A DNA stretch of 4,536 bases from a virus (lineage: Duplodnaviria; Heunggongvirae; Uroviricota; Caudoviricetes). The first letter of the stretch is position 1. Each line of letters begins with the position of its first letter. Below the pieces are notes generated by a model. That model searched no databases. It saw only the letters and a list, made by a program, of their open reading frames with translations, and was not told where the DNA came from. This document shows, piece by piece, positions 1 through 4,536 of the stretch. The translations under genes were made by a program, and so were the position numbers. The DNA is taken from the IMG/VR virus record IMGVR_UViG_2648501338_000010. One strand, 5' to 3'.

Positions 1-43
1 CCCGTTGACGGACTTCAGGGGAAAAACGAGTATTTTTAGTCAT
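1..43 (-). CDS. IS3-family transposase OrfA, first 14 codons only (5' partial in window; gene continues past position 1)
   Basis: ATG at 43..41 preceded by AGAGG 8 nt upstream; translation MTKNTRFSPEVRQR; the frame stays open to the window edge. Confidence 0.7.
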   Translation of the reverse strand, partial: MTKNTRFSPEVRQR

Positions 44-97
44 CCTGTTTACCTCTTTCTCAGGAAGTTTAGTCTCCAGGATTCCCGGGGCGGTTCA
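1..97 (-). mobile_element. Terminal 97 bp of an IS3-family insertion sequence (IS629/IS1203-like), outer end at position 97; element continues beyond window start
   Basis: Minus strand 97->1 reads TGAACCGCCCCGGGAATCCTGGAGACTAAACTTCCTGAGAAAGAGGTAAACAGG then ATG ACT AAA AAT ACT CGT TTT TCC CCT GAA GTC CGT CAA CGG. The TGA-initiated terminal repeat and the MTKNTRFSPEVRQR start match my recollection of the IS629-type left end and OrfA. Identification is from memory, not a search. Confidence 0.75.
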
Positions 98-165
98 ATG
101 TTCTCTGCTTCGATAACTCTGTTGAATGGTTCTCCATTCCATTCACCTGTGACTCGGAAGTGCAT
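98..165 (-). pseudogene. 5' fragment (22 codons, MHFRVTGEWNGEPFNRVIEAEN) of a minus-strand gene apparently interrupted by the IS insertion
   Basis: ATG at 165..163 with GGAG 7 nt upstream; the frame runs straight into the IS terminus at 97/98, after which the reading is IS sequence. Product unknown. A second frame (ATG 137, MENHSTELSKQRT) is a weaker alternative. Confidence 0.3.
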
Positions 166-204
166 TTATCATCTCCATAAAACAAAACCCGCCGTAGCGA
201 GTTC

Positions 205-235
205 AGATAAAAGAAATCCTCGTCAGTGCGAGGAT
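205..235 (-). terminator. Candidate intrinsic terminator for leftward transcription
   Basis: Inverted repeat atcctcg (216-222) / cgaggat (229-235) with 6-nt loop; on the minus strand the stem is followed directly by TTCTTTTAT. Stem is short, so confidence is low. Confidence 0.3.
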
Positions 236-407
236 GCTGTTCATTGCTGCTATACACTTTTTTGCTCTCAACGTAAGCGGTAGCTCATTCTGTTGGGTTG
301 GTGCAGTTGCTTTTAGGAAATGCTATTTACCCCTTAAACGTCGGCTGAAAGAGCTAAAATCCATGCAAAAAATTTACGCAATTTTGTGTATTATTGTGCA
401 GTAAGTA

Positions 408-1010
408 ATGAGCTATTTTCTGCGCAAAAAATGGATGGTAAATTTGTCCGGGGCAGGAAAAATTTTATGGGCGCTAAACATGAAAAAAGATTCGTATCCT
501 TATTTGATTTGCATGACAGTTTCAGGCCTGATCTTTATTTTCCTTTTCTTCTGGTGGCGGGCAGATATTTACAGGGTCACGTTTCTTAATCAGAGTATAT
601 CCCACTATTACATTCTGTTTAGCATGGGAATAGCTTTTCTGTTATCTCTGTTTTGGGTTAAGAAGGGGATAGTAAAACAAAGCGGCTGGAAGAGTCTGTC
701 AGCATACCTTAAGGTTTATGCAGGGATGTGCATATTTGCTGGATTTTTTCTGATTATACCCCTTACAACACTAACTTATTTTTTGCCTGGAGAGACATCG
801 TCTTATGTTGCACCGTATCGGTATACTTCCGGTAGTTCAAAAAGTTGTTCTGGAGCTGAGGTGGATGACCCTGATCTACATGAGAATATTCGCATTTGCT
901 ATCCGTATGGCAATTATGAGTACGATAATATTATCTATGTTGAAAAGAAAATTAATACATTAGGTGCGGTAGTAACATATGCACAGACCGCGCGTGATGA
1001 TACTGAATGA
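408..1010 (+). CDS. Hypothetical inner-membrane protein, 200 aa, three predicted transmembrane helices plus ~75-aa Cys/Tyr-rich C-terminal domain; unrecognised accessory (moron) gene
   Basis: Only long ORF on the plus strand, opposite to all phage early genes. Basic N-terminus (RKK, KK), then hydrophobic stretches LICMTVSGLIFIFLFFWW, ILFSMGIAFLLSLFWV and AGMCIFAGFFLIIPLTTLTYFL, then a soluble tail with Cys in SKSCSG and IRICYPYG. AT-rich codon usage: hand-counted 60-nt blocks give ~25-37% G+C versus ~48% in bet. Hairpin 35 nt after the stop. Start ATG 408 has no strong SD; in-frame ATGs at 435 and 480 are alternatives. Confidence 0.65.
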   Translation: MSYFLRKKWMVNLSGAGKILWALNMKKDSYPYLICMTVSGLIFIFLFFWWRADIYRVTFLNQSISHYYILFSMGIAFLLSLFWVKKGIVKQSGWKSLSAYLKVYAGMCIFAGFFLIIPLTTLTYFLPGETSSYVAPYRYTSGSSKSCSGAEVDDPDLHENIRICYPYGNYEYDNIIYVEKKINTLGAVVTYAQTARDDTE

Positions 1011-1044
1011 GATAGTATATAGCGGGCAAGTTTTAGTTAATTTA

Positions 1045-1078
1045 TCGAGGTAATATAATTTACCTCGACTCGTTTATT
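1045..1078 (+). terminator. Candidate terminator hairpin downstream of the membrane-protein gene
   Basis: Perfect 9-bp inverted repeat tcgaggtaa (1045-1053) / ttacctcga (1060-1068) with loop TATAAT, followed by ctcgtttattct (T-rich but interrupted). Confidence 0.35.
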
Positions 1079-1220
1079 CTGGTATTAATATTTCGCTTTA
1101 CGATCGATTTTTATCTGATGATATCATGCGGTTTTCATATACTGACTTACTGTCTTTTCTCCGTTAGCGATTTTCTCCTGCTCAGCGATGATTTTATCTT
1201 TGGCTTCTAGTTAATTTCGC

Positions 1221-1442
1221 TCACTTCGAACCTCTCTGTTTACTGATAAGTTCCAGATCCTCCTGGCAACTTGCACAAGTCCGACAACCCTGAACGGCCA
1301 GGCGTCTTCGCTCATCTATGGGATCGCCACACTCACAACAATGAGTGGCAGATATAGCCTGGTGGTTCAGGCGGCGCATTTTTATTGCTGTGTTGCGCTG
1401 TAATTCTTCAATTTCTGATGCTGAATCAATGATGTCTGCCAT
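1221..1442 (-). CDS. TraR/DksA-family C4 zinc-finger protein, 73 aa (lambda Orf73-like)
   Basis: ATG at 1442, TGA at 1223..1221. Translation contains CxxC-(17)-CxxC with the family motif CCECGDPIDERRRLAVQGCRTCASCQ. Same size as the TraR homologue I recall being encoded by lambda in this part of the pL operon. Confidence 0.85.
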   Translation of the reverse strand: MADIIDSASEIEELQRNTAIKMRRLNHQAISATHCCECGDPIDERRRLAVQGCRTCASCQEDLELISKQRGSK

Positions 1443-1493
1443 CTTCCATTAATCCCTGAATTGTTGGTTAATACGCTTGAGGGTGAATGCGAA

Positions 1494-1518
1494 CAATAAA
1501 AAAGGAGCCTGTAGCTCC
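1494..1518 (-). terminator. Candidate intrinsic terminator on the minus strand between the orf61-region ORF and the TraR-like gene
   Basis: Minus strand reads GGAGC TACAG GCTCC followed immediately by TTTTTTATTG (plus strand 1504-1518 hairpin, A-run 1495-1503). Stem is only 5 bp but GC-rich with a clean T6 tract. Confidence 0.45.
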
Positions 1519-1540
1519 CTGATGATTTTGCTTTTCATGC

Positions 1541-1822
1541 TCACCGTTCCTTAAAGACGCCGTTTAACATGCCGATCGCCAGGCTTAAATGAGTCGGTGT
1601 GAATCCCATCAGCGTTACCGTTTCGCGGTGCTTCTTCAGTACGCTACGGCAAATGTCATCGACGTTTTTATCCGGAAACTGCTGTCTGGCTTTTTTGATT
1701 TCAGAATTAGCCTGACGGGCAATACTGCGAAGGGCGTTTTCTTGCTGAGGTGTCATTGAACAAGTCCCATGTCGGCAAGCATAAGCACACAGAATATGAA
1801 GCCCGCTGCCAGAAAAATGCAT
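1541..1822 (-). CDS. Hypothetical protein in the lambda orf61 position; 93 aa from ATG 1822, or 71 aa from ATG 1756 (MTPQQENALRS...)
   Basis: Open frame in the six-frame track. ATG 1822 follows a TGA directly (TGAATG). The internal ATG 1756 overlaps the stop of a 27-codon linker ORF in ATGA fashion. I could not reconcile this ORF with the 61-codon lambda orf61 I remember, so start and identity are uncertain. Confidence 0.5.
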   Translation of the reverse strand: MHFSGSGLHILCAYACRHGTCSMTPQQENALRSIARQANSEIKKARQQFPDKNVDDICRSVLKKHRETVTLMGFTPTHLSLAIGMLNGVFKER

Positions 1823-1832
1823 TCAGTGGTTG

Positions 1833-2024
1833 TCATACCAGGTCTCTCTCATCTGCTTCTGCTTTCGCCACCATCATTTCCAGCTTTTGCGAAAGGGATG
1901 TGGCTAACGTATGAAATTCTTCGTCTGTTTCTACTGGTATTGGCACAAACCTGACTCCAATTTGAGCAAGGCTATGTGCCATCTCAATACTCGTTCTTAA
2001 CTCAACAGGAGATGCTTTGTGCAT
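1833..2024 (-). CDS. Lambda-type early protein Orf63 (63 aa), function unknown
   Basis: Length, position and 28-nt overlap with the next gene match the lambda orf63/orf60a arrangement relative to exo as I recall it; translation [26 protein letters not shown]... Confidence 0.75.
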   Translation of the reverse strand: MHKASPVELRTSIEMAHSLAQIGVRFVPIPVETDEEFHTLATSLSQKLEMMVAKAEADERDLV

Positions 2025-2179
2025 ATCGCCTCCCGTTTATTATTTATCTCCTCAGCCAGCCGCTGGGCTTTCAGCGGATTTCGGATAACAGAAAGGCCGG
2101 GAAATACCCAGCCTCGCTTCGTAACGGAGTAGACGAAAGTGATCGTGCCTACGCGGATATTATCGTGAGGATGCTTCAT
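1997..2179 (-). CDS. Lambda-type early protein Orf60a (60 aa), function unknown
   Basis: ATG at 2179..2177 overlaps the exo stop TGA (2178..2176) as ATGA. The track ORF begins two codons earlier at 2185 (MAM...); I chose the coupled start that gives 60 aa. Confidence 0.7.
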
Positions 2180-2856
2180 CGCCATTGCTCCCCAAATACA
2201 AAACCAATTTCAGCCAGTGCCTCGTCCATTTTTTCGATGAACTCCGGCACCATCTCGTCAAAACCCGCCATGTACTTTTCATCCCGCTCAACCACGACAT
2301 AATGCAGGCCTTCACGCTTCATACGCGGGTCATAGTTGGCAAAGTACCAGGCATCTTTTCGCGTCACCCACATGCTGTACTGCACCTGGGCCATGTAAGC
2401 CGACTTTATGGCCTCGAAACCACCGAGCCTGAACTTCATGAAATCCCGGGAGGTAAACGGGCATTTCAGCTCAAGGCCGTTGCCGTCACTGCATAAACCA
2501 TCGGGAGAGCAGGCGGTGCGCATACTTTCGTCGCGATAGATGATCGGGGATTCAGTAACATTCACGCCGGAAGTGAATTCAAACAGGGTTCTGGCGTCGT
2601 TCTCGTACTGTTTTCCCCAGGCCAGCGCCTTAGCATTAACTTCCGGAGCCACACCGGTGCAAACCTCAGCCAGCAGGGTGTGGAAGTAGGACATTTTCAT
2701 GTCAGGCCACTTCTTTCCTGAGCGGGGCTTTGCTATCACGTTGTGAACTTCTGAAGCGGTGATGACGCCGAGCCGTAATTTGTGCCATGCATCATCCCCC
2801 TGTTCGACAGCTCTCACGTCGATCCCGGTACGCTGCAGGATAATGTCCGGTGTCAT
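2176..2856 (-). CDS. exo: Lambda exonuclease (Red-alpha), 5'-3' dsDNA exonuclease, 226 aa
   Basis: Translation [65 protein letters not shown]... matches lambda Exo as I recall it, full length. Start ATG overlaps the bet stop (ATGA at 2853-2856). Confidence 0.97.
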
Positions 2857-3638
2857 GCTGCCACCTTCTGCTCAGTGGCTTTCTGTTTCAGGAATCCAAG
2901 AGCTTTCACTGCTTCGGCCTGTGTCAGTTCTGACGATGCGCGAATGTCGCGGCGAAATATCTGGGAACAGAGCGGCAATAAGTCGTCATCCCATGTTTTA
3001 TCCAGGGCGATTAGCAGAGTGTTAATCTCCTGCATGGTTTCATCGTTAACCGGAGTGATGTCGCGTTCCGGCTGGCGTTCTGCAGTGTATGCAGTATTTT
3101 CGACAATGCGCTCGGCTTCATCCTTGTCATAGATACCAGCAAATCCGAAGGCCAGACGGGCACACTGAATCATGGCTTTATGCCGTAACATCCGTTTAGG
3201 ATGCGACTGCCACGGCCCCGTGATTTCTCTGCCTTCGCGGGTTTTGAATGGTTCGCGGCGGCATTCATCCATCCATTCGGTAACGCAGATCGGATGATTA
3301 CGGTCCTTGCGGTAAATCCGGCATGTACAGGATTCATTGTCCTGCTCAAAGTCCATGCCATCAAACTGCTGGTTTTCATTGATGATGCGGGACCAGCCAT
3401 CAACGCCCACCACCGGAACGATGCCGTTCTGCTTATCAGGGAAGGCGTAAATTTCTTTCGTCCACGGATTAAGGCCGTACTGGTTGGCGACGATCAACAA
3501 TGCGATGAACTGCGCATCGCTGGCATCGCCTTTAAATGCCGTCTGGCGAAGAGTGGTGATCAGTTCCTGTGGGTCGACAGAATCCATGCCGACACGTTCA
3601 GCCAGCTTCCCTGCCAGCGTTGCGAGTGCTGTACTCAT
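2853..3638 (-). CDS. bet: Lambda Bet (Red-beta) single-strand annealing recombinase, 261 aa
   Basis: Translation [69 protein letters not shown]... matches lambda Bet, full length; starts 5 nt after the gam stop. Confidence 0.97.
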
Positions 3639-3643
3639 CCGTT

Positions 3644-4060
3644 TTATACCTCTGAATCAATATCAACCTGATGGTGAGCAATGGTTTCAACCATGTACCG
3701 GATGTGTTCTGCCATGCGCTCCTGAAACTCAACATCGTCATCAAACGCACGGGTAATGGCTTTTTTGCTGGCCCCGTGGCGTTGCAAATGACCGATGCAT
3801 AGCGATTCAAACAGGTGCTGGGGCAGGCCTTTTTCCATGTCGTCTGCCAGTTCTGCCTCTTTCTCTTCACGGGCTATCTGCTGGTAGTGACGCGCCCAGC
3901 TCTGAGCCTCAAGACGATCCTGAATGTAATAAGCGTTCATGGCCGAACTCCTGAAATAGCTGTGAAAATATCGCCCGCGAAATGCCGGGCTGATTAGGAA
4001 AACAGGAAAGGGGGTTAGTGAATGCTTTTGCTTGATCTCAGTTTCAGTATTAATATCCAT
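3644..4060 (-). CDS. gam: Lambda Gam, RecBCD inhibitor; 138-aa long frame (GamL) with internal SD-preceded start at 3940 giving the 98-aa GamS form
   Basis: Translation [100 protein letters not shown]... Internal ATG 3940..3938 is preceded by AGGAG 7 nt upstream; the 4060 ATG has no SD. Confidence 0.95.
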
Positions 4061-4158
4061 TTTTTATAAGCGTCGACGGCCTCACGAAACATCTTTTCAT
4101 CGCCAATAAAAGTGGCGATAGTGAATTTAGTCTGGATAGCCATAATTGTTTGATCCAT
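4015..4158 (-). CDS. kil: Lambda Kil (47 aa), host cell-division inhibitor
   Basis: ATG at 4158..4156 preceded by CAGGAGTCCCAAAAA; translation [47 protein letters not shown]; stop TAA 4017..4015. The 89-aa track ORF is an upstream extension of this frame with no SD. Confidence 0.85.
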
Positions 4159-4291
4159 TTTTTGGGACTCCTGGCTGATTAAGTATGTCGATAAGGCGTT
4201 TCCATCCGTCACGTAATTTACGGGTGATTCGTTCAAGTAAAGATTCGGAAGGGCAGCCAGCAACAGGCCACCCTGCAATGGCATATTGCAT
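4127..4291 (-). CDS. cIII: Lambda cIII (54 aa), inhibitor of FtsH/HflB protease that stabilises CII
   Basis: Not in the ORF track (below its size cutoff). ATG at 4291..4289 with AAGGAG 6 nt upstream; hand translation [54 protein letters not shown], stop TAA 4129..4127. Confidence 0.9.
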   Translation of the reverse strand: MQYAIAGWPVAGCPSESLLERITRKLRDGWKRLIDILNQPGVPKNGSNNYGYPD

Positions 4292-4363
4292 GGTGTGCTC
4301 CTTATTTATACATAACGAAAAACGCCTCGAGTGAAGCGTAATTGGTATGCGGTAACGCCGCGC

Positions 4364-4536
4364 TCAGGCGGCCTTGATAGTCATATCATCTGAATCAAAT
4401 ATTTCTGATGTATCGATATCGGTAATTCTTATTCCTTCACTACCATCCATTGGAGGCCATCCTTCCTGACCATTTCCATCATTCCAGTCGAACTCACACA
4501 CAACACCATATGCATTTAAGTCGCTTGAAATTGCTA
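4364..4536 (-). CDS. ea10: Lambda-type Ea10, 3' portion only (gene starts beyond window end)
   Basis: Minus-strand frame open from the window edge to TGA at 4366..4364; hand translation ends ...AISSDLNAYGVVCEFDWNDGNGQEGWPPMDGSEGIRITDIDTSEIFDSDDMTIKAA. Position relative to cIII matches lambda ea10; the protein sequence itself I cannot verify from memory. Confidence 0.65.
   Translation of the reverse strand, partial: AISSDLNAYGVVCEFDWNDGNGQEGWPPMDGSEGIRITDIDTSEIFDSDDMTIKAA

What the first reader, a model, noticed from the sequence alone, without database searches (positions are those of the whole stretch)
1221..1442. Phage-encoded TraR/DksA-type zinc-finger protein
The 73-aa ORF has the CxxC...CxxC spacing and conserved residues of the TraR/DksA family, which bind the RNA polymerase secondary channel and reprogramme host transcription. 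From the literature I recall that lambda encodes such a homologue (Orf73) in the pL operon. Its presence here, downstream of a terminator-like hairpin, suggests N-antitermination-dependent expression of a host transcription modulator.
Basis: partly seen in the sequence, partly recalled or inferred. Interest (0 to 1): 0.45.

Follow-up and report, generated by a model that had tools for sequence, protein, structure and literature searches.

The report
Lambda Orf73 gene, a known TraR homologue
The 73-codon gene is the lambdoid-phage orf73, one residue different from phage lambda's Orf73, a TraR-like zinc-finger protein already shown to bind host RNA polymerase and shut down ribosome-gene promoters, so the finding is correct but already known.

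Summary
The ORF is real: minus strand 1442..1221, ATG start, 73 aa. It is 100% identical to the phage 434 protein and 72/73 identical to lambda Orf73 (only V49A). It lies in the conserved pL-operon order cIII-kil-gam-bet-exo-orf60a-orf63-orf61-orf73.

It has the TraR family hallmarks:
- N-terminal DxxDxA (D3, D6, A8).
- C35-x2-C38-x17-C56-x2-C59.
- R46/R47, matching TraR R48/R49.

It passes the Pfam zf-dskA_traR threshold and aligns end to end with TraR chains solved on RNA polymerase.

Lambda Orf73 was characterised in 2022 (PMC9239242). It binds the DksA/TraR site on RNAP and inhibits rrnB P1 (IC50 about 50 nM) without ppGpp. It slows host growth and raises phage yield 3- to 4-fold.

The terminator-like hairpin upstream (1520..1502 plus a T-tract) is also real and identical in lambda. 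It is one of several such hairpins between cIII and orf73. N-dependent expression is therefore a sound textbook inference, but it was not tested here, and N lies outside the window.

Verdict: observation confirmed, interpretation supported, already known, low interest. Side observations: an IS3-family end truncates the orf55 homologue, and an AT-rich reverse-oriented membrane-protein module replaces ea22/ea8.5.

The parts
1221..1442 (-). orf73 coding sequence (73 aa plus stop): TraR-family C4 zinc-finger protein, orthologue of lambda Orf73
   Evidence: ORF list. 100% identical to the phage 434 protein and 72/73 to lambda Orf73. Pfam PF01258 above its gathering score. Aligns with TraR PDB chains. 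PGAP names it 'TraR/DksA family transcriptional regulator' in E. coli genomes.
1453..1457 (-). Shine-Dalgarno-like AGGGA, 10 nt upstream of the orf73 ATG
   Evidence: Read from the sequence. The phage 434 record annotates a ribosome-binding site at the equivalent of window 1453-1455. Conserved in lambda, 4A7, SfI and AU6Stx1.
1492..1520 (-). Terminator-like hairpin (stem 1520..1502, 7-8 bp, 3-nt loop) followed by the T-tract TTTTATTGTT
   Evidence: Pattern scan. RNA fold -19 kcal/mol in a 61-nt context, z -2.9. Identical in lambda, SfI and AU6Stx1; 4A7 has one change at the stem base. The same GGAGC/GCTCC stem with a UUCG loop precedes the orf73 homologue of Stx2a_WGPS9, where the upstream gene is different. 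Function as a terminator was not tested.
1449..1544 (-). 31-codon small ORF between orf61 and orf73. Its start overlaps the orf61 stop (GTGA), its stop lies 6 nt before the orf73 ATG, and it contains the hairpin
   Evidence: ORF list. Annotated as a 29-aa CDS from the internal ATG in phage 434, 4A7 and SfI. A 31-aa lambda ORF in this region (orf2313) is reported as translated by ribosome profiling (PMC8614690); I infer the correspondence from its length and position.
1541..1822 (-). orf61 homologue, full-length form (93 aa; 71 aa if started at MTPQQ as annotated in phage 434)
   Evidence: PHROG 303 E 2.5e-43. Lambda carries one extra A in an A-run that truncates it to 61 aa. PMC8614690 notes that lambda Orf61 is truncated relative to Stx phages.
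1833..4291 (-). Upstream pL-operon genes, in transcription order: cIII (4291..4127), kil (4158..4015 as annotated in 434), gam (4060..3644), bet (3638..2853), exo (2856..2176), orf60a (2185..1997), orf63 (2024..1833)
   Evidence: Pfam hits Lambda_CIII, Lambda_Kil, Gam, RecT, YqaJ, DUF1317, DUF1382. Annotations of phage 434 and lambda.
2093..2115 (-). Stronger terminator-like hairpin (9 bp, 6 GC) inside orf60a, 61-83 nt downstream of the exo stop; probably lambda tL3
   Evidence: Pattern scan. Fold -18.5 kcal/mol, z -2.6. pKD46 is described as carrying exo-bet-gam with the 'native terminator (tL3)' (PMC9526937). The lambda coordinates of tL3 and of the pKD46 insert come from my own memory.
4322..4339 (-). 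Terminator-like hairpin plus T-tract upstream of cIII
   Evidence: Pattern scan. Not followed up.
1207..1224 (-). Remnant of the ea22 start (GTG AGC GAA ATT AAC TAG), overlapping the orf73 stop. Homology to lambda ends at about 1209
   Evidence: Window-lambda DNA alignment. Lambda ea22 begins MSEIN.

Best explanation
The ORF at 1442..1221 (minus strand) is orf73 of a lambdoid (phage 434-like) prophage. It encodes a 73-aa member of the TraR branch of the DksA/TraR family.

Mechanism, by near-identity with lambda Orf73 and homology with F-plasmid TraR:
- It binds host RNA polymerase in the secondary channel without touching DNA.
- The N-terminal helix carries D3-x-x-D6-x-A8 towards the active site.
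- The C4 zinc-ribbon domain, with R46/R47, sits on the rim helices and beta' Si3.
- The C-terminal helix contacts the beta lobe/Si1.
[quoted passage not shown] No ppGpp is needed.

The gene is transcribed as a delayed-early gene of the leftward pL operon. It lies downstream of several intrinsic-terminator-like hairpins, so its expression should need N-modified, terminator-resistant RNAP.

The outcome known for lambda is slower host growth and a 3- to 4-fold larger phage yield.

Shown here: the ORF, its family hallmarks, its orthology and synteny, and the hairpins. Shown by others for lambda Orf73: RNAP binding, promoter inhibition and phage yield. Inferred: that the A49 variant behaves the same, that the hairpin terminates, and that expression depends on N.
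For: - ORF and coordinates.
- Window positions 98-4536 are 99.9% identical to phage 434 and 97.5% to lambda over the shared parts.
- The protein is 100% identical to the 434 protein and 72/73 to lambda Orf73, encoded at lambda 30392-30613, which is unannotated in NC_001416 and J02459.
- Within orf73 there are 4 nucleotide differences from lambda: 3 synonymous and 1 conservative, V49A.
- Family scores: Pfam PF01258 35.8 bits against a cutoff of 24.9; PHROG 54 E 2e-25.
- TraR chains solved on RNAP (5w1s_M, 6n57_M) align over residues 1-64.
- In an alignment with homologues of 32-52% identity (Klebsiella, Vibrio, Salmonella and Pseudomonas phages, phage 186, TraR), D6, A8, C35, C38, I42, E44, R47, G52, C56, C59 and E64 are invariant. 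Position 3 is D in 8 of 9 sequences and E in one. Position 49 varies (A/V/L/I), so A49 is within natural variation.
- Synteny with the lambda pL operon.
- Experiments on lambda Orf73 (PMC9239242): it competes with DksA for RNAP; IC50 about 50 nM on rrnB P1 without ppGpp; it inhibits rpsT P2; it complements a dksA-null strain; D3A/D6A or deletion lowers yield 3- to 4-fold; it is expressed from pL 5-20 min after induction.
- Terminator-like hairpins on the minus strand upstream of orf73 at 4339..4322, 2115..2093 and 1520..1502. The scan found 12 terminator-like sites in the window against 4.1 +/- 2.1 in shuffles.
- No promoter-like site lies between the last hairpin and the ATG.
- An N homologue lies upstream in phage 434.
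Against: - NCBIfam TIGR02419 (TraR family subfamily model) scores 55.7 bits, just below its curated cutoff of 59.7.
- A single-sequence AlphaFold2 model was poor (pLDDT 58.5) and gave no Foldseek match in the PDB, so I have no fold-level confirmation of my own.
- The A49 variant itself has never been assayed, as far as I found.
- Lambda Orf73 differs functionally from TraR. [quoted passage not shown]
- The physiological role is disputed. An earlier study reported that orf73 is pro-lysogenic and lowers lytic yield (Zdrojewska 2019, as cited).
- N, nutL and pL are outside the window. The source element carries an IS insertion 1.1 kb downstream, so whether this copy is expressed at all is unknown.
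Confidence: 0.93

Rival explanations
1. The main biological role of Orf73 is not to raise the lytic burst by shutting down ribosome synthesis. Instead it biases the lysis-lysogeny decision (pro-lysogenic), or blocks host replication initiation (the 'bin' phenotype) together with neighbouring exo-xis genes. The molecular mechanism, RNAP binding, could be the same.
For: Deletion of orf73 in lambda and Stx phages lowered host survival after infection and lowered lysogenisation efficiency (Zdrojewska 2019, cited in PMC8614690). orf73, ea22, ea8.5 and orf55 were implicated in blocking host replication initiation, and Orf73 inhibits dnaA P2 and P1 at higher concentrations, IC50 about 0.4-2 uM (PMC9239242).
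Against: In-frame deletion and D3A/D6A point mutants, which avoid polar effects, lowered phage yield 3- to 4-fold after induction. dnaA mRNA was reduced weakly if at all in vivo (PMC9239242). In this window ea22 and ea8.5 are absent and the orf55 homologue is truncated, so any function that needs those partners cannot operate here.
Confidence: 0.25
2. This copy is a silent passenger in a decaying prophage. The IS insertion and module replacement downstream indicate degradation, and the gene may never be expressed because pL or N may be missing or permanently repressed.
For: An IS3-family element end at window 1-97 truncates the orf55 homologue. Closely related prophage copies in O157:H7 genomes are visibly defective, with a frameshifted integrase and a truncated bet. 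N and pL are not in the window.
Against: All nine pL-operon ORFs in the window from cIII to orf73 are intact and 97.5-99.9% identical to functional phages. orf73 differs from lambda by 3 synonymous and 1 conservative change. The IS lies downstream of orf73 in the direction of transcription, so it cannot be polar on it.
Confidence: 0.2
3. The CxxC...CxxC pattern is a generic zinc ribbon unrelated to RNAP binding, for example a DNA-binding or structural zinc-finger protein, and the resemblance to TraR is coincidental.
For: Short C4 zinc ribbons are common. TIGR02419 is just under its cutoff. There is a weak PADLOC hit to a methyl-directed restriction enzyme model, E 0.0065. My own structure model was of low confidence.
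Against: The similarity to TraR is full length and includes the non-zinc DxxDxA tip and the RR pair. The protein is 72/73 identical to a protein shown biochemically to bind the DksA site of RNAP.
Confidence: 0.01

Closest known systems
Bacteriophage lambda Orf73 (also called Orf2310; lambda complement 30392..30613)
   Same: 72 of 73 residues. Same length, start and stop. The stop overlaps the ea22 GTG start. Same upstream small ORF, hairpin and ribosome-binding region. Same place in the pL operon after exo-orf60a-orf63-orf61. Same six cysteines, including the two extra ones noted in PMC9239242 (C36 and C53 here).
   Different: A49 instead of V49, the residue just after the E44-x-x-R47-L48 motif that corresponds to TraR ExxRK (PMC8614690). 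Downstream, ea22 and ea8.5 are replaced by a reverse-oriented AT-rich module. Upstream, orf61 is full length here but frameshifted in lambda.
Phage 434 CPT_434_37 'zinc finger domain protein' (OL657226, UMO75301.1)
   Same: 100% identical protein. DNA 99.9% identical across window 98-4536, including the reverse-oriented membrane-protein module.
   Different: Window positions 1-97 are an IS3-family element end that 434 lacks. 434 has an intact 55-aa orf55 homologue there.
F-plasmid TraR (PDB 5w1s, 6n57 and related RNAP complexes)
   Same: 73 aa. DxxDxA at residues 3-8. CxxC-x17-CxxC. The RR pair. Architecture of N-terminal helix, zinc globule and C-terminal helix. Works without ppGpp (PMC9239242).
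   Different: Only 32% identity. Encoded by a phage early operon rather than a conjugative tra operon. Two extra cysteines. ExxRL instead of ExxRK. Lambda Orf73 inhibits promoters but barely activates them, unlike TraR.
E. coli DksA
   Same: Same C4 zinc finger and DxxDxA tip. Same binding site on RNAP, since lambda Orf73 competes with DksA.
   Different: DksA is 151 aa, has a two-helix coiled coil that presents the tip, and needs ppGpp for full activity. This protein is half the size, has a single N-terminal helix, and by homology is ppGpp-independent.

Membership tests
TraR family (short branch of DksA/TraR; Pfam PF01258, TIGR02419) | C4 zinc finger with CxxC-x17-CxxC spacing | tested here: met
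   C35-x2-C38-x17-C56-x2-C59 aligns column for column with the TraR and DksA cysteines. It is invariant in 9 diverse homologues. Pfam PF01258 scores 35.8 bits against a gathering score of 24.9.
TraR family (short branch of DksA/TraR; Pfam PF01258, TIGR02419) | N-terminal acidic tip motif DxxDxA | tested here: met
   D3-I-I-D6-S-A8. It aligns with TraR D3/D6/A8 and the DksA tip. D6 and A8 are invariant, and position 3 is D or E in all 9 homologues. D3A/D6A inactivates lambda Orf73 (PMC9239242).
TraR family (short branch of DksA/TraR; Pfam PF01258, TIGR02419) | Basic pair equivalent to TraR R48 (rim helices) and R49 (beta' Si3) | tested here: met
   R46 and R47 align with TraR R48 and R49. R47 is invariant in 9 homologues. 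The role of these residues is from PMC9239242.
TraR family (short branch of DksA/TraR; Pfam PF01258, TIGR02419) | About 70-75 aa with a single N-terminal helix, a zinc globule and a C-terminal helix (no DksA-type coiled coil) | tested here: inconclusive
   The length (73 aa) and the end-to-end alignment to TraR fit. The single-sequence AF2 model gives helices 5-30 and 56-70 flanking the cysteine region, but at pLDDT 58.5, and Foldseek against the PDB found nothing. A published AlphaFold model of lambda Orf73 reports pLDDT 93 and similarity to TraR (PMC8614690).
TraR family (short branch of DksA/TraR; Pfam PF01258, TIGR02419) | Score above the curated cutoff of the NCBIfam subfamily model TIGR02419 | tested here: inconclusive
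   55.7 bits against a cutoff of 59.7, E 5.6e-15, covering model positions 1-64 of 64. It falls short by 4 bits. Lambda Orf73, a validated TraR homologue, differs by one residue, so I read the cutoff as conservative rather than as an exclusion.
TraR family (short branch of DksA/TraR; Pfam PF01258, TIGR02419) | Binds the RNAP secondary channel and inhibits rRNA promoters without ppGpp | not testable with these tools
   Shown for lambda Orf73, 72/73 identical: competition with DksA, and IC50 about 50 nM on rrnB P1 (PMC9239242). Not shown for the A49 variant.
DksA proper | About 150 aa with an N-terminal region and a two-helix coiled coil that presents the tip; ppGpp-dependent | tested here: not met
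   The protein is 73 aa and aligns only with the second coiled-coil helix, the zinc finger and the C-terminal helix of DksA. The first 69 DksA residues have no counterpart. It is therefore a TraR-type relative, not a DksA.
Lambdoid pL-operon exo-xis block | Gene order exo-orf60a-orf63-orf61-orf73 on one strand downstream of cIII-kil-gam-bet | tested here: met
   Pfam assignments and near-identity to phage 434 and lambda. The block is described as conserved in PMC8614690. The fifth member, ea22, is reduced here to a 5-codon remnant.

The most novel reading that the evidence does not exclude
The 31-codon ORF between orf61 and orf73 may be more than filler. Its start overlaps the orf61 stop, its stop lies 6 nt before the orf73 ATG, and it contains the terminator-like hairpin. 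Together these could form a translation-sensitive gate. A ribosome translating the small ORF close behind RNAP would melt the hairpin and deliver ribosomes to orf73 by coupling, so Orf73 dosage would be set by translation as well as by N antitermination. In lambda the orf61 frameshift would break the first link of that chain. A separate possibility is that V49A, next to the Si3-contact motif, changes the activity.
Probability: 0.08. Interest if true: 0.3.

Novelty: already known. Interest (0 to 1): 0.08.

Why it matters
It matters little as a discovery. The gene, its family, its place in the pL operon and its biochemical activity are all published for lambda Orf73, and current pipelines already annotate this protein as a TraR/DksA family regulator in hundreds of E. 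coli prophages. The value here is confirmatory. It shows that a reader working from sequence alone recognised a phage-encoded RNA-polymerase secondary-channel regulator, and it places this copy in a phage 434-like prophage that has lost ea22/ea8.5 and part of orf55. That natural context could help separate Orf73's own effects from those of its former neighbours.

Tried and rejected
- Single-sequence AlphaFold2 of the 73-aa protein gave pLDDT 58.5, and Foldseek against the PDB returned no match. This is uninformative, not negative evidence.
- I did not run the very large homologue searches (search for homologous proteins, the search of protein representatives) to build an alignment for a better model. 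The 72/73 identity to an experimentally characterised protein already settles the identity.
- Literature searches for the mapped position of lambda tL3, or for any named terminator between orf61 and orf73, found only vector descriptions. The Datsenko-Wanner paper is not held. The assignment of hairpin 2115..2093 to tL3 therefore rests partly on my memory, and the hairpin at 1520..1502 has no name that I could document.
- The weak PADLOC hit of Orf73 to a methyl-directed restriction enzyme model (E 0.0065) and the weak Pfam hit of the orf61 homologue to Viral_DNA_Zn_bi (17.1 bits against a cutoff of 25) were dismissed as below threshold.
- The Rfam scan found nothing in or near orf73.
- The 15-nt imperfect inverted repeat inside orf73 (1289-1303 / 1357-1371) was judged to be chance.
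- The search for the exact IS/orf55 junction in complete E. coli genomes found no collinear match, so the source genome was not identified.

Full report
**What the window is.** The 4,536-base window is a segment of the leftward early (pL) operon of a lambdoid phage or prophage. All the operon genes lie on the minus strand. Pfam identifies, in transcription order, cIII, kil, gam, bet (RecT), exo (YqaJ), orf60a (DUF1317) and orf63 (DUF1382). Megablast shows that window positions 98-4536 are 99.9% identical to phage 434 (OL657226). They are 97.5% identical to phage lambda over the 76% of the window that the two share. The phage 434 and lambda annotations confirm the gene order and show the N antiterminator gene further upstream, outside the window.

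**The observation.** The sequence is MADIIDSASEIEELQRNTAIKMRRLNHQAISATHCCECGDPIDERRRLAVQGCRTCASCQEDLELISKQRGSK. Several independent scores show the match is not chance:
- Pfam zf-dskA_traR scores 35.8 bits against a gathering score of 24.9.
- PHROG 54 'DksA-like zinc-finger protein' matches with E 2e-25 over residues 1-71.
- Among solved structures, the F-plasmid TraR chains from RNA-polymerase complexes (5w1s_M, 6n57_M) align over residues 1-64, and YbiI aligns over the zinc finger.
- One curated model, TIGR02419, falls 4 bits short of its cutoff (55.7 against 59.7). I report this as inconclusive.

**Hallmark residues.** In an alignment with lambda Orf73, TraR and DksA, the invariant columns are D3, D6 and A8 (the DxxDxA tip), C35, C38, C56 and C59 (CxxC-x17-CxxC), G39, I42, R46, E64 and K68.

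I then fetched six more phage homologues of 38-81% identity and aligned them together with lambda Orf73 and TraR (32% identity). They come from an Stx2 phage, a Klebsiella phage, phage 186, a Vibrio phage, Salmonella phage yarpen and Pseudomonas phiCTX. In that alignment:
- D6, A8, the four cysteines, I42, E44, R47, G52 and E64 stay invariant.
- Position 3 is D in eight sequences and E in one.
- Position 49 varies among A, V, L and I.

The protein passes it.

**Identity with lambda Orf73.** Lambda's reference records leave a gap between ea22 and orf61. That gap holds a 73-aa ORF at lambda 30392-30613, which differs from the window protein only by V49 in place of A49. At the DNA level the two orf73 genes differ at four positions, three synonymous and one giving V49A. 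Newer lambda records and PGAP annotate this gene as a DksA/TraR zinc-finger protein or 'TraR/DksA family transcriptional regulator'. tblastn finds relatives in 579 phage records. The first 1.5 kb of the window is covered at 80% or more in 820 of 5,426 complete E. coli genomes.

**What is already known about the protein.** Gopalkrishnan et al. 2022 (PMC9239242) purified lambda Orf73 and reported the following:
- It competes with DksA for RNAP.
- It inhibits rrnB P1 with an IC50 of about 50 nM, equal to TraR and independent of ppGpp.
- It inhibits the rpsT P2 promoter and complements a dksA-null strain.
- When expressed from pL or from a plasmid, it slows host growth.
- Phage yield after induction falls 3- to 4-fold when the gene is deleted in frame or carries D3A/D6A.

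Unlike TraR, it barely activates the thrABC, argI or rpoH P3 promoters. The authors link this tentatively to two extra cysteines, which are C36 and C53 here as well. An earlier study reached a different physiological conclusion, that orf73 is pro-lysogenic and lowers lytic yield (cited). Modelling work describes the same hallmarks, including ExxRL in place of TraR's ExxRK (PMC8614690). A49 sits immediately after that motif.

**Mechanism I commit to.** The protein binds the secondary channel of host RNAP. The DxxDxA helix reaches towards the active site and the zinc globule sits on the rim helices and beta' Si3. This inhibits promoters with short-lived open complexes (rRNA and r-protein promoters) without ppGpp, and so redirects transcription during early lytic development. 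For this copy the mechanism is inferred from 72/73 identity. It was not tested here.

**The hairpin and N dependence.** On the minus strand, stem 1520..1502 (AGGGAGCU-ACA-GGCUCCUU) is followed by UUUUAUUGUU. It folds at -19 kcal/mol in a 61-nt context, z -2.9.

Conservation:
- The hairpin is identical in lambda, SfI and AU6Stx1. 4A7 has one change at the base of the stem.
- In Stx2a_WGPS9 the upstream gene is an antirepressor and the intervening small ORF is absent. Yet the same GGAGC/GCUCC stem, with a UUCG loop and a U-tract, still precedes the orf73 homologue.
- The hairpin therefore travels with the gene. Because the stem sequence never changes, there is no covariation evidence.

This is not the only hairpin. 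A stronger one (9 bp) lies in orf60a at 2115..2093, just after exo. It is probably tL3: pKD46 is said to carry exo-bet-gam with the native tL3, and the lambda coordinates are from my memory. Another lies upstream of cIII at 4339..4322. Terminator-like sites are enriched in the window, 12 found against 4.1 +/- 2.1 in shuffles. No promoter-like site lies between the last hairpin and orf73.

It is established lambda biology that pL transcripts pass tL1 and later terminators only when modified by N. Lambda orf73 is reported to be expressed from pL 5-20 min after induction. N-dependent expression is therefore a sound inference. It does not rest specifically on this hairpin, it was not tested here, and N and nutL lie outside the window.

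**Local anatomy.** A 31-codon ORF (1544..1449) fills the gap between orf61 and orf73:
- Its GTG start overlaps the orf61 stop (GTGA).
- An ATG follows two codons later.
- Its stop lies 6 nt before the orf73 ATG.
- The hairpin lies inside it.

It is annotated in 434, 4A7 and SfI. A 31-aa lambda ORF in this region is reported as translated. This allows a speculative coupling or attenuation reading, which I give as the 'novel case' at low probability.

**Other features of the window:**
- orf61 is full length here (93 aa). Lambda has one extra A in an A-run that truncates it.
- Downstream of orf73, homology to lambda ends at about 1209, five codons into ea22.
- In place of ea22 and ea8.5 there is an AT-rich (34-41% GC), oppositely oriented module. 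It encodes 56-aa and 200-aa putative membrane proteins and has its own terminator. It is shared with phage 434 and many E. coli prophages.
- Window positions 1-97 are the end of an IS3-family element that truncates the orf55 homologue. I did not find this exact junction in complete E. coli genomes.
- Rfam recognises the known cIII thermoregulator at 4246-4304.

**Verdict.** The feature is the already characterised lambdoid gene orf73, so novelty is 'already known' and interest is low. What remains open is the behaviour of the A49 variant, whether the hairpins really terminate, and whether this particular prophage copy is expressed.

Noticed in passing
window 1-97 (and 49-165, minus strand): The first 97 bases are the outer end of an IS3-family insertion sequence (IS629/IS1203-like, ending ...GGGGCGGTTCA). 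It abuts codon 23 of the homologue of lambda orf55, so that gene is truncated and reads into IS sequence (38-aa ORF). Phage 434 has the intact 55-aa gene. The exact junction was not found collinear in 5,426 complete E. coli genomes.
   Followed up: partly
window 234-1068, plus strand: An AT-rich module (GC 0.34-0.41) is transcribed opposite to the pL operon. It has a 56-aa ORF (234-404), a 200-aa ORF (408-1010; annotated in phage 434 as a 188-aa putative membrane protein starting at the equivalent of window 444) and its own terminator hairpin (1045-1068). It replaces lambda ea22/ea8.5. It matches PHROG 1416 (unknown function) and has no Pfam, NCBIfam or PADLOC hit. It looks like a moron of unknown role and is shared with phage 434 and many E. 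coli prophages.
   Followed up: partly
window 1207-1224, minus strand: A five-codon remnant of the ea22 start (GTG AGC GAA ATT AAC, then TAG) overlaps the orf73 stop. Homology with lambda ends at about 1209, which marks the recombination junction of the module swap.
   Followed up: yes
window 1541-1822, minus strand: The orf61 homologue is the full-length 93-aa form. Lambda has one extra A in the run at the equivalent of window about 1689-1694, which frameshifts it to 61 aa. The literature (PMC8614690) already notes that lambda Orf61 is truncated relative to Stx phages.
   Followed up: yes
window 1449-1544, minus strand: A 31-codon ORF is chained between orf61 and orf73. Its start overlaps the orf61 stop, its stop lies 6 nt before the orf73 ATG, and it contains the terminator-like hairpin. 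It probably corresponds to the lambda small ORF seen by ribosome profiling (orf2313). It has no family hit.
   Followed up: partly
window 2093-2115, minus strand: A 9-bp GC-rich hairpin followed by UUCUGUUAU lies inside orf60a, 61-83 nt past the exo stop. It is probably the lambda tL3 terminator carried on Red-recombineering plasmids.
   Followed up: partly
window 4246-4304, minus strand: Rfam RF01804, the lambda cIII thermoregulator element, matches at 88.5 bits (gathering score 50). It spans the cIII start. This is a known feature.
   Followed up: no
L014 358-380 (Stx2a_WGPS9, AP012535): A second type of orf73 homologue (81% identity) sits behind an antirepressor gene instead of orf61. It keeps the same GGAGC/GCTCC hairpin with a UUCG loop and lacks the small ORF. 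The hairpin and orf73 therefore appear to move together as a unit.
   Followed up: partly
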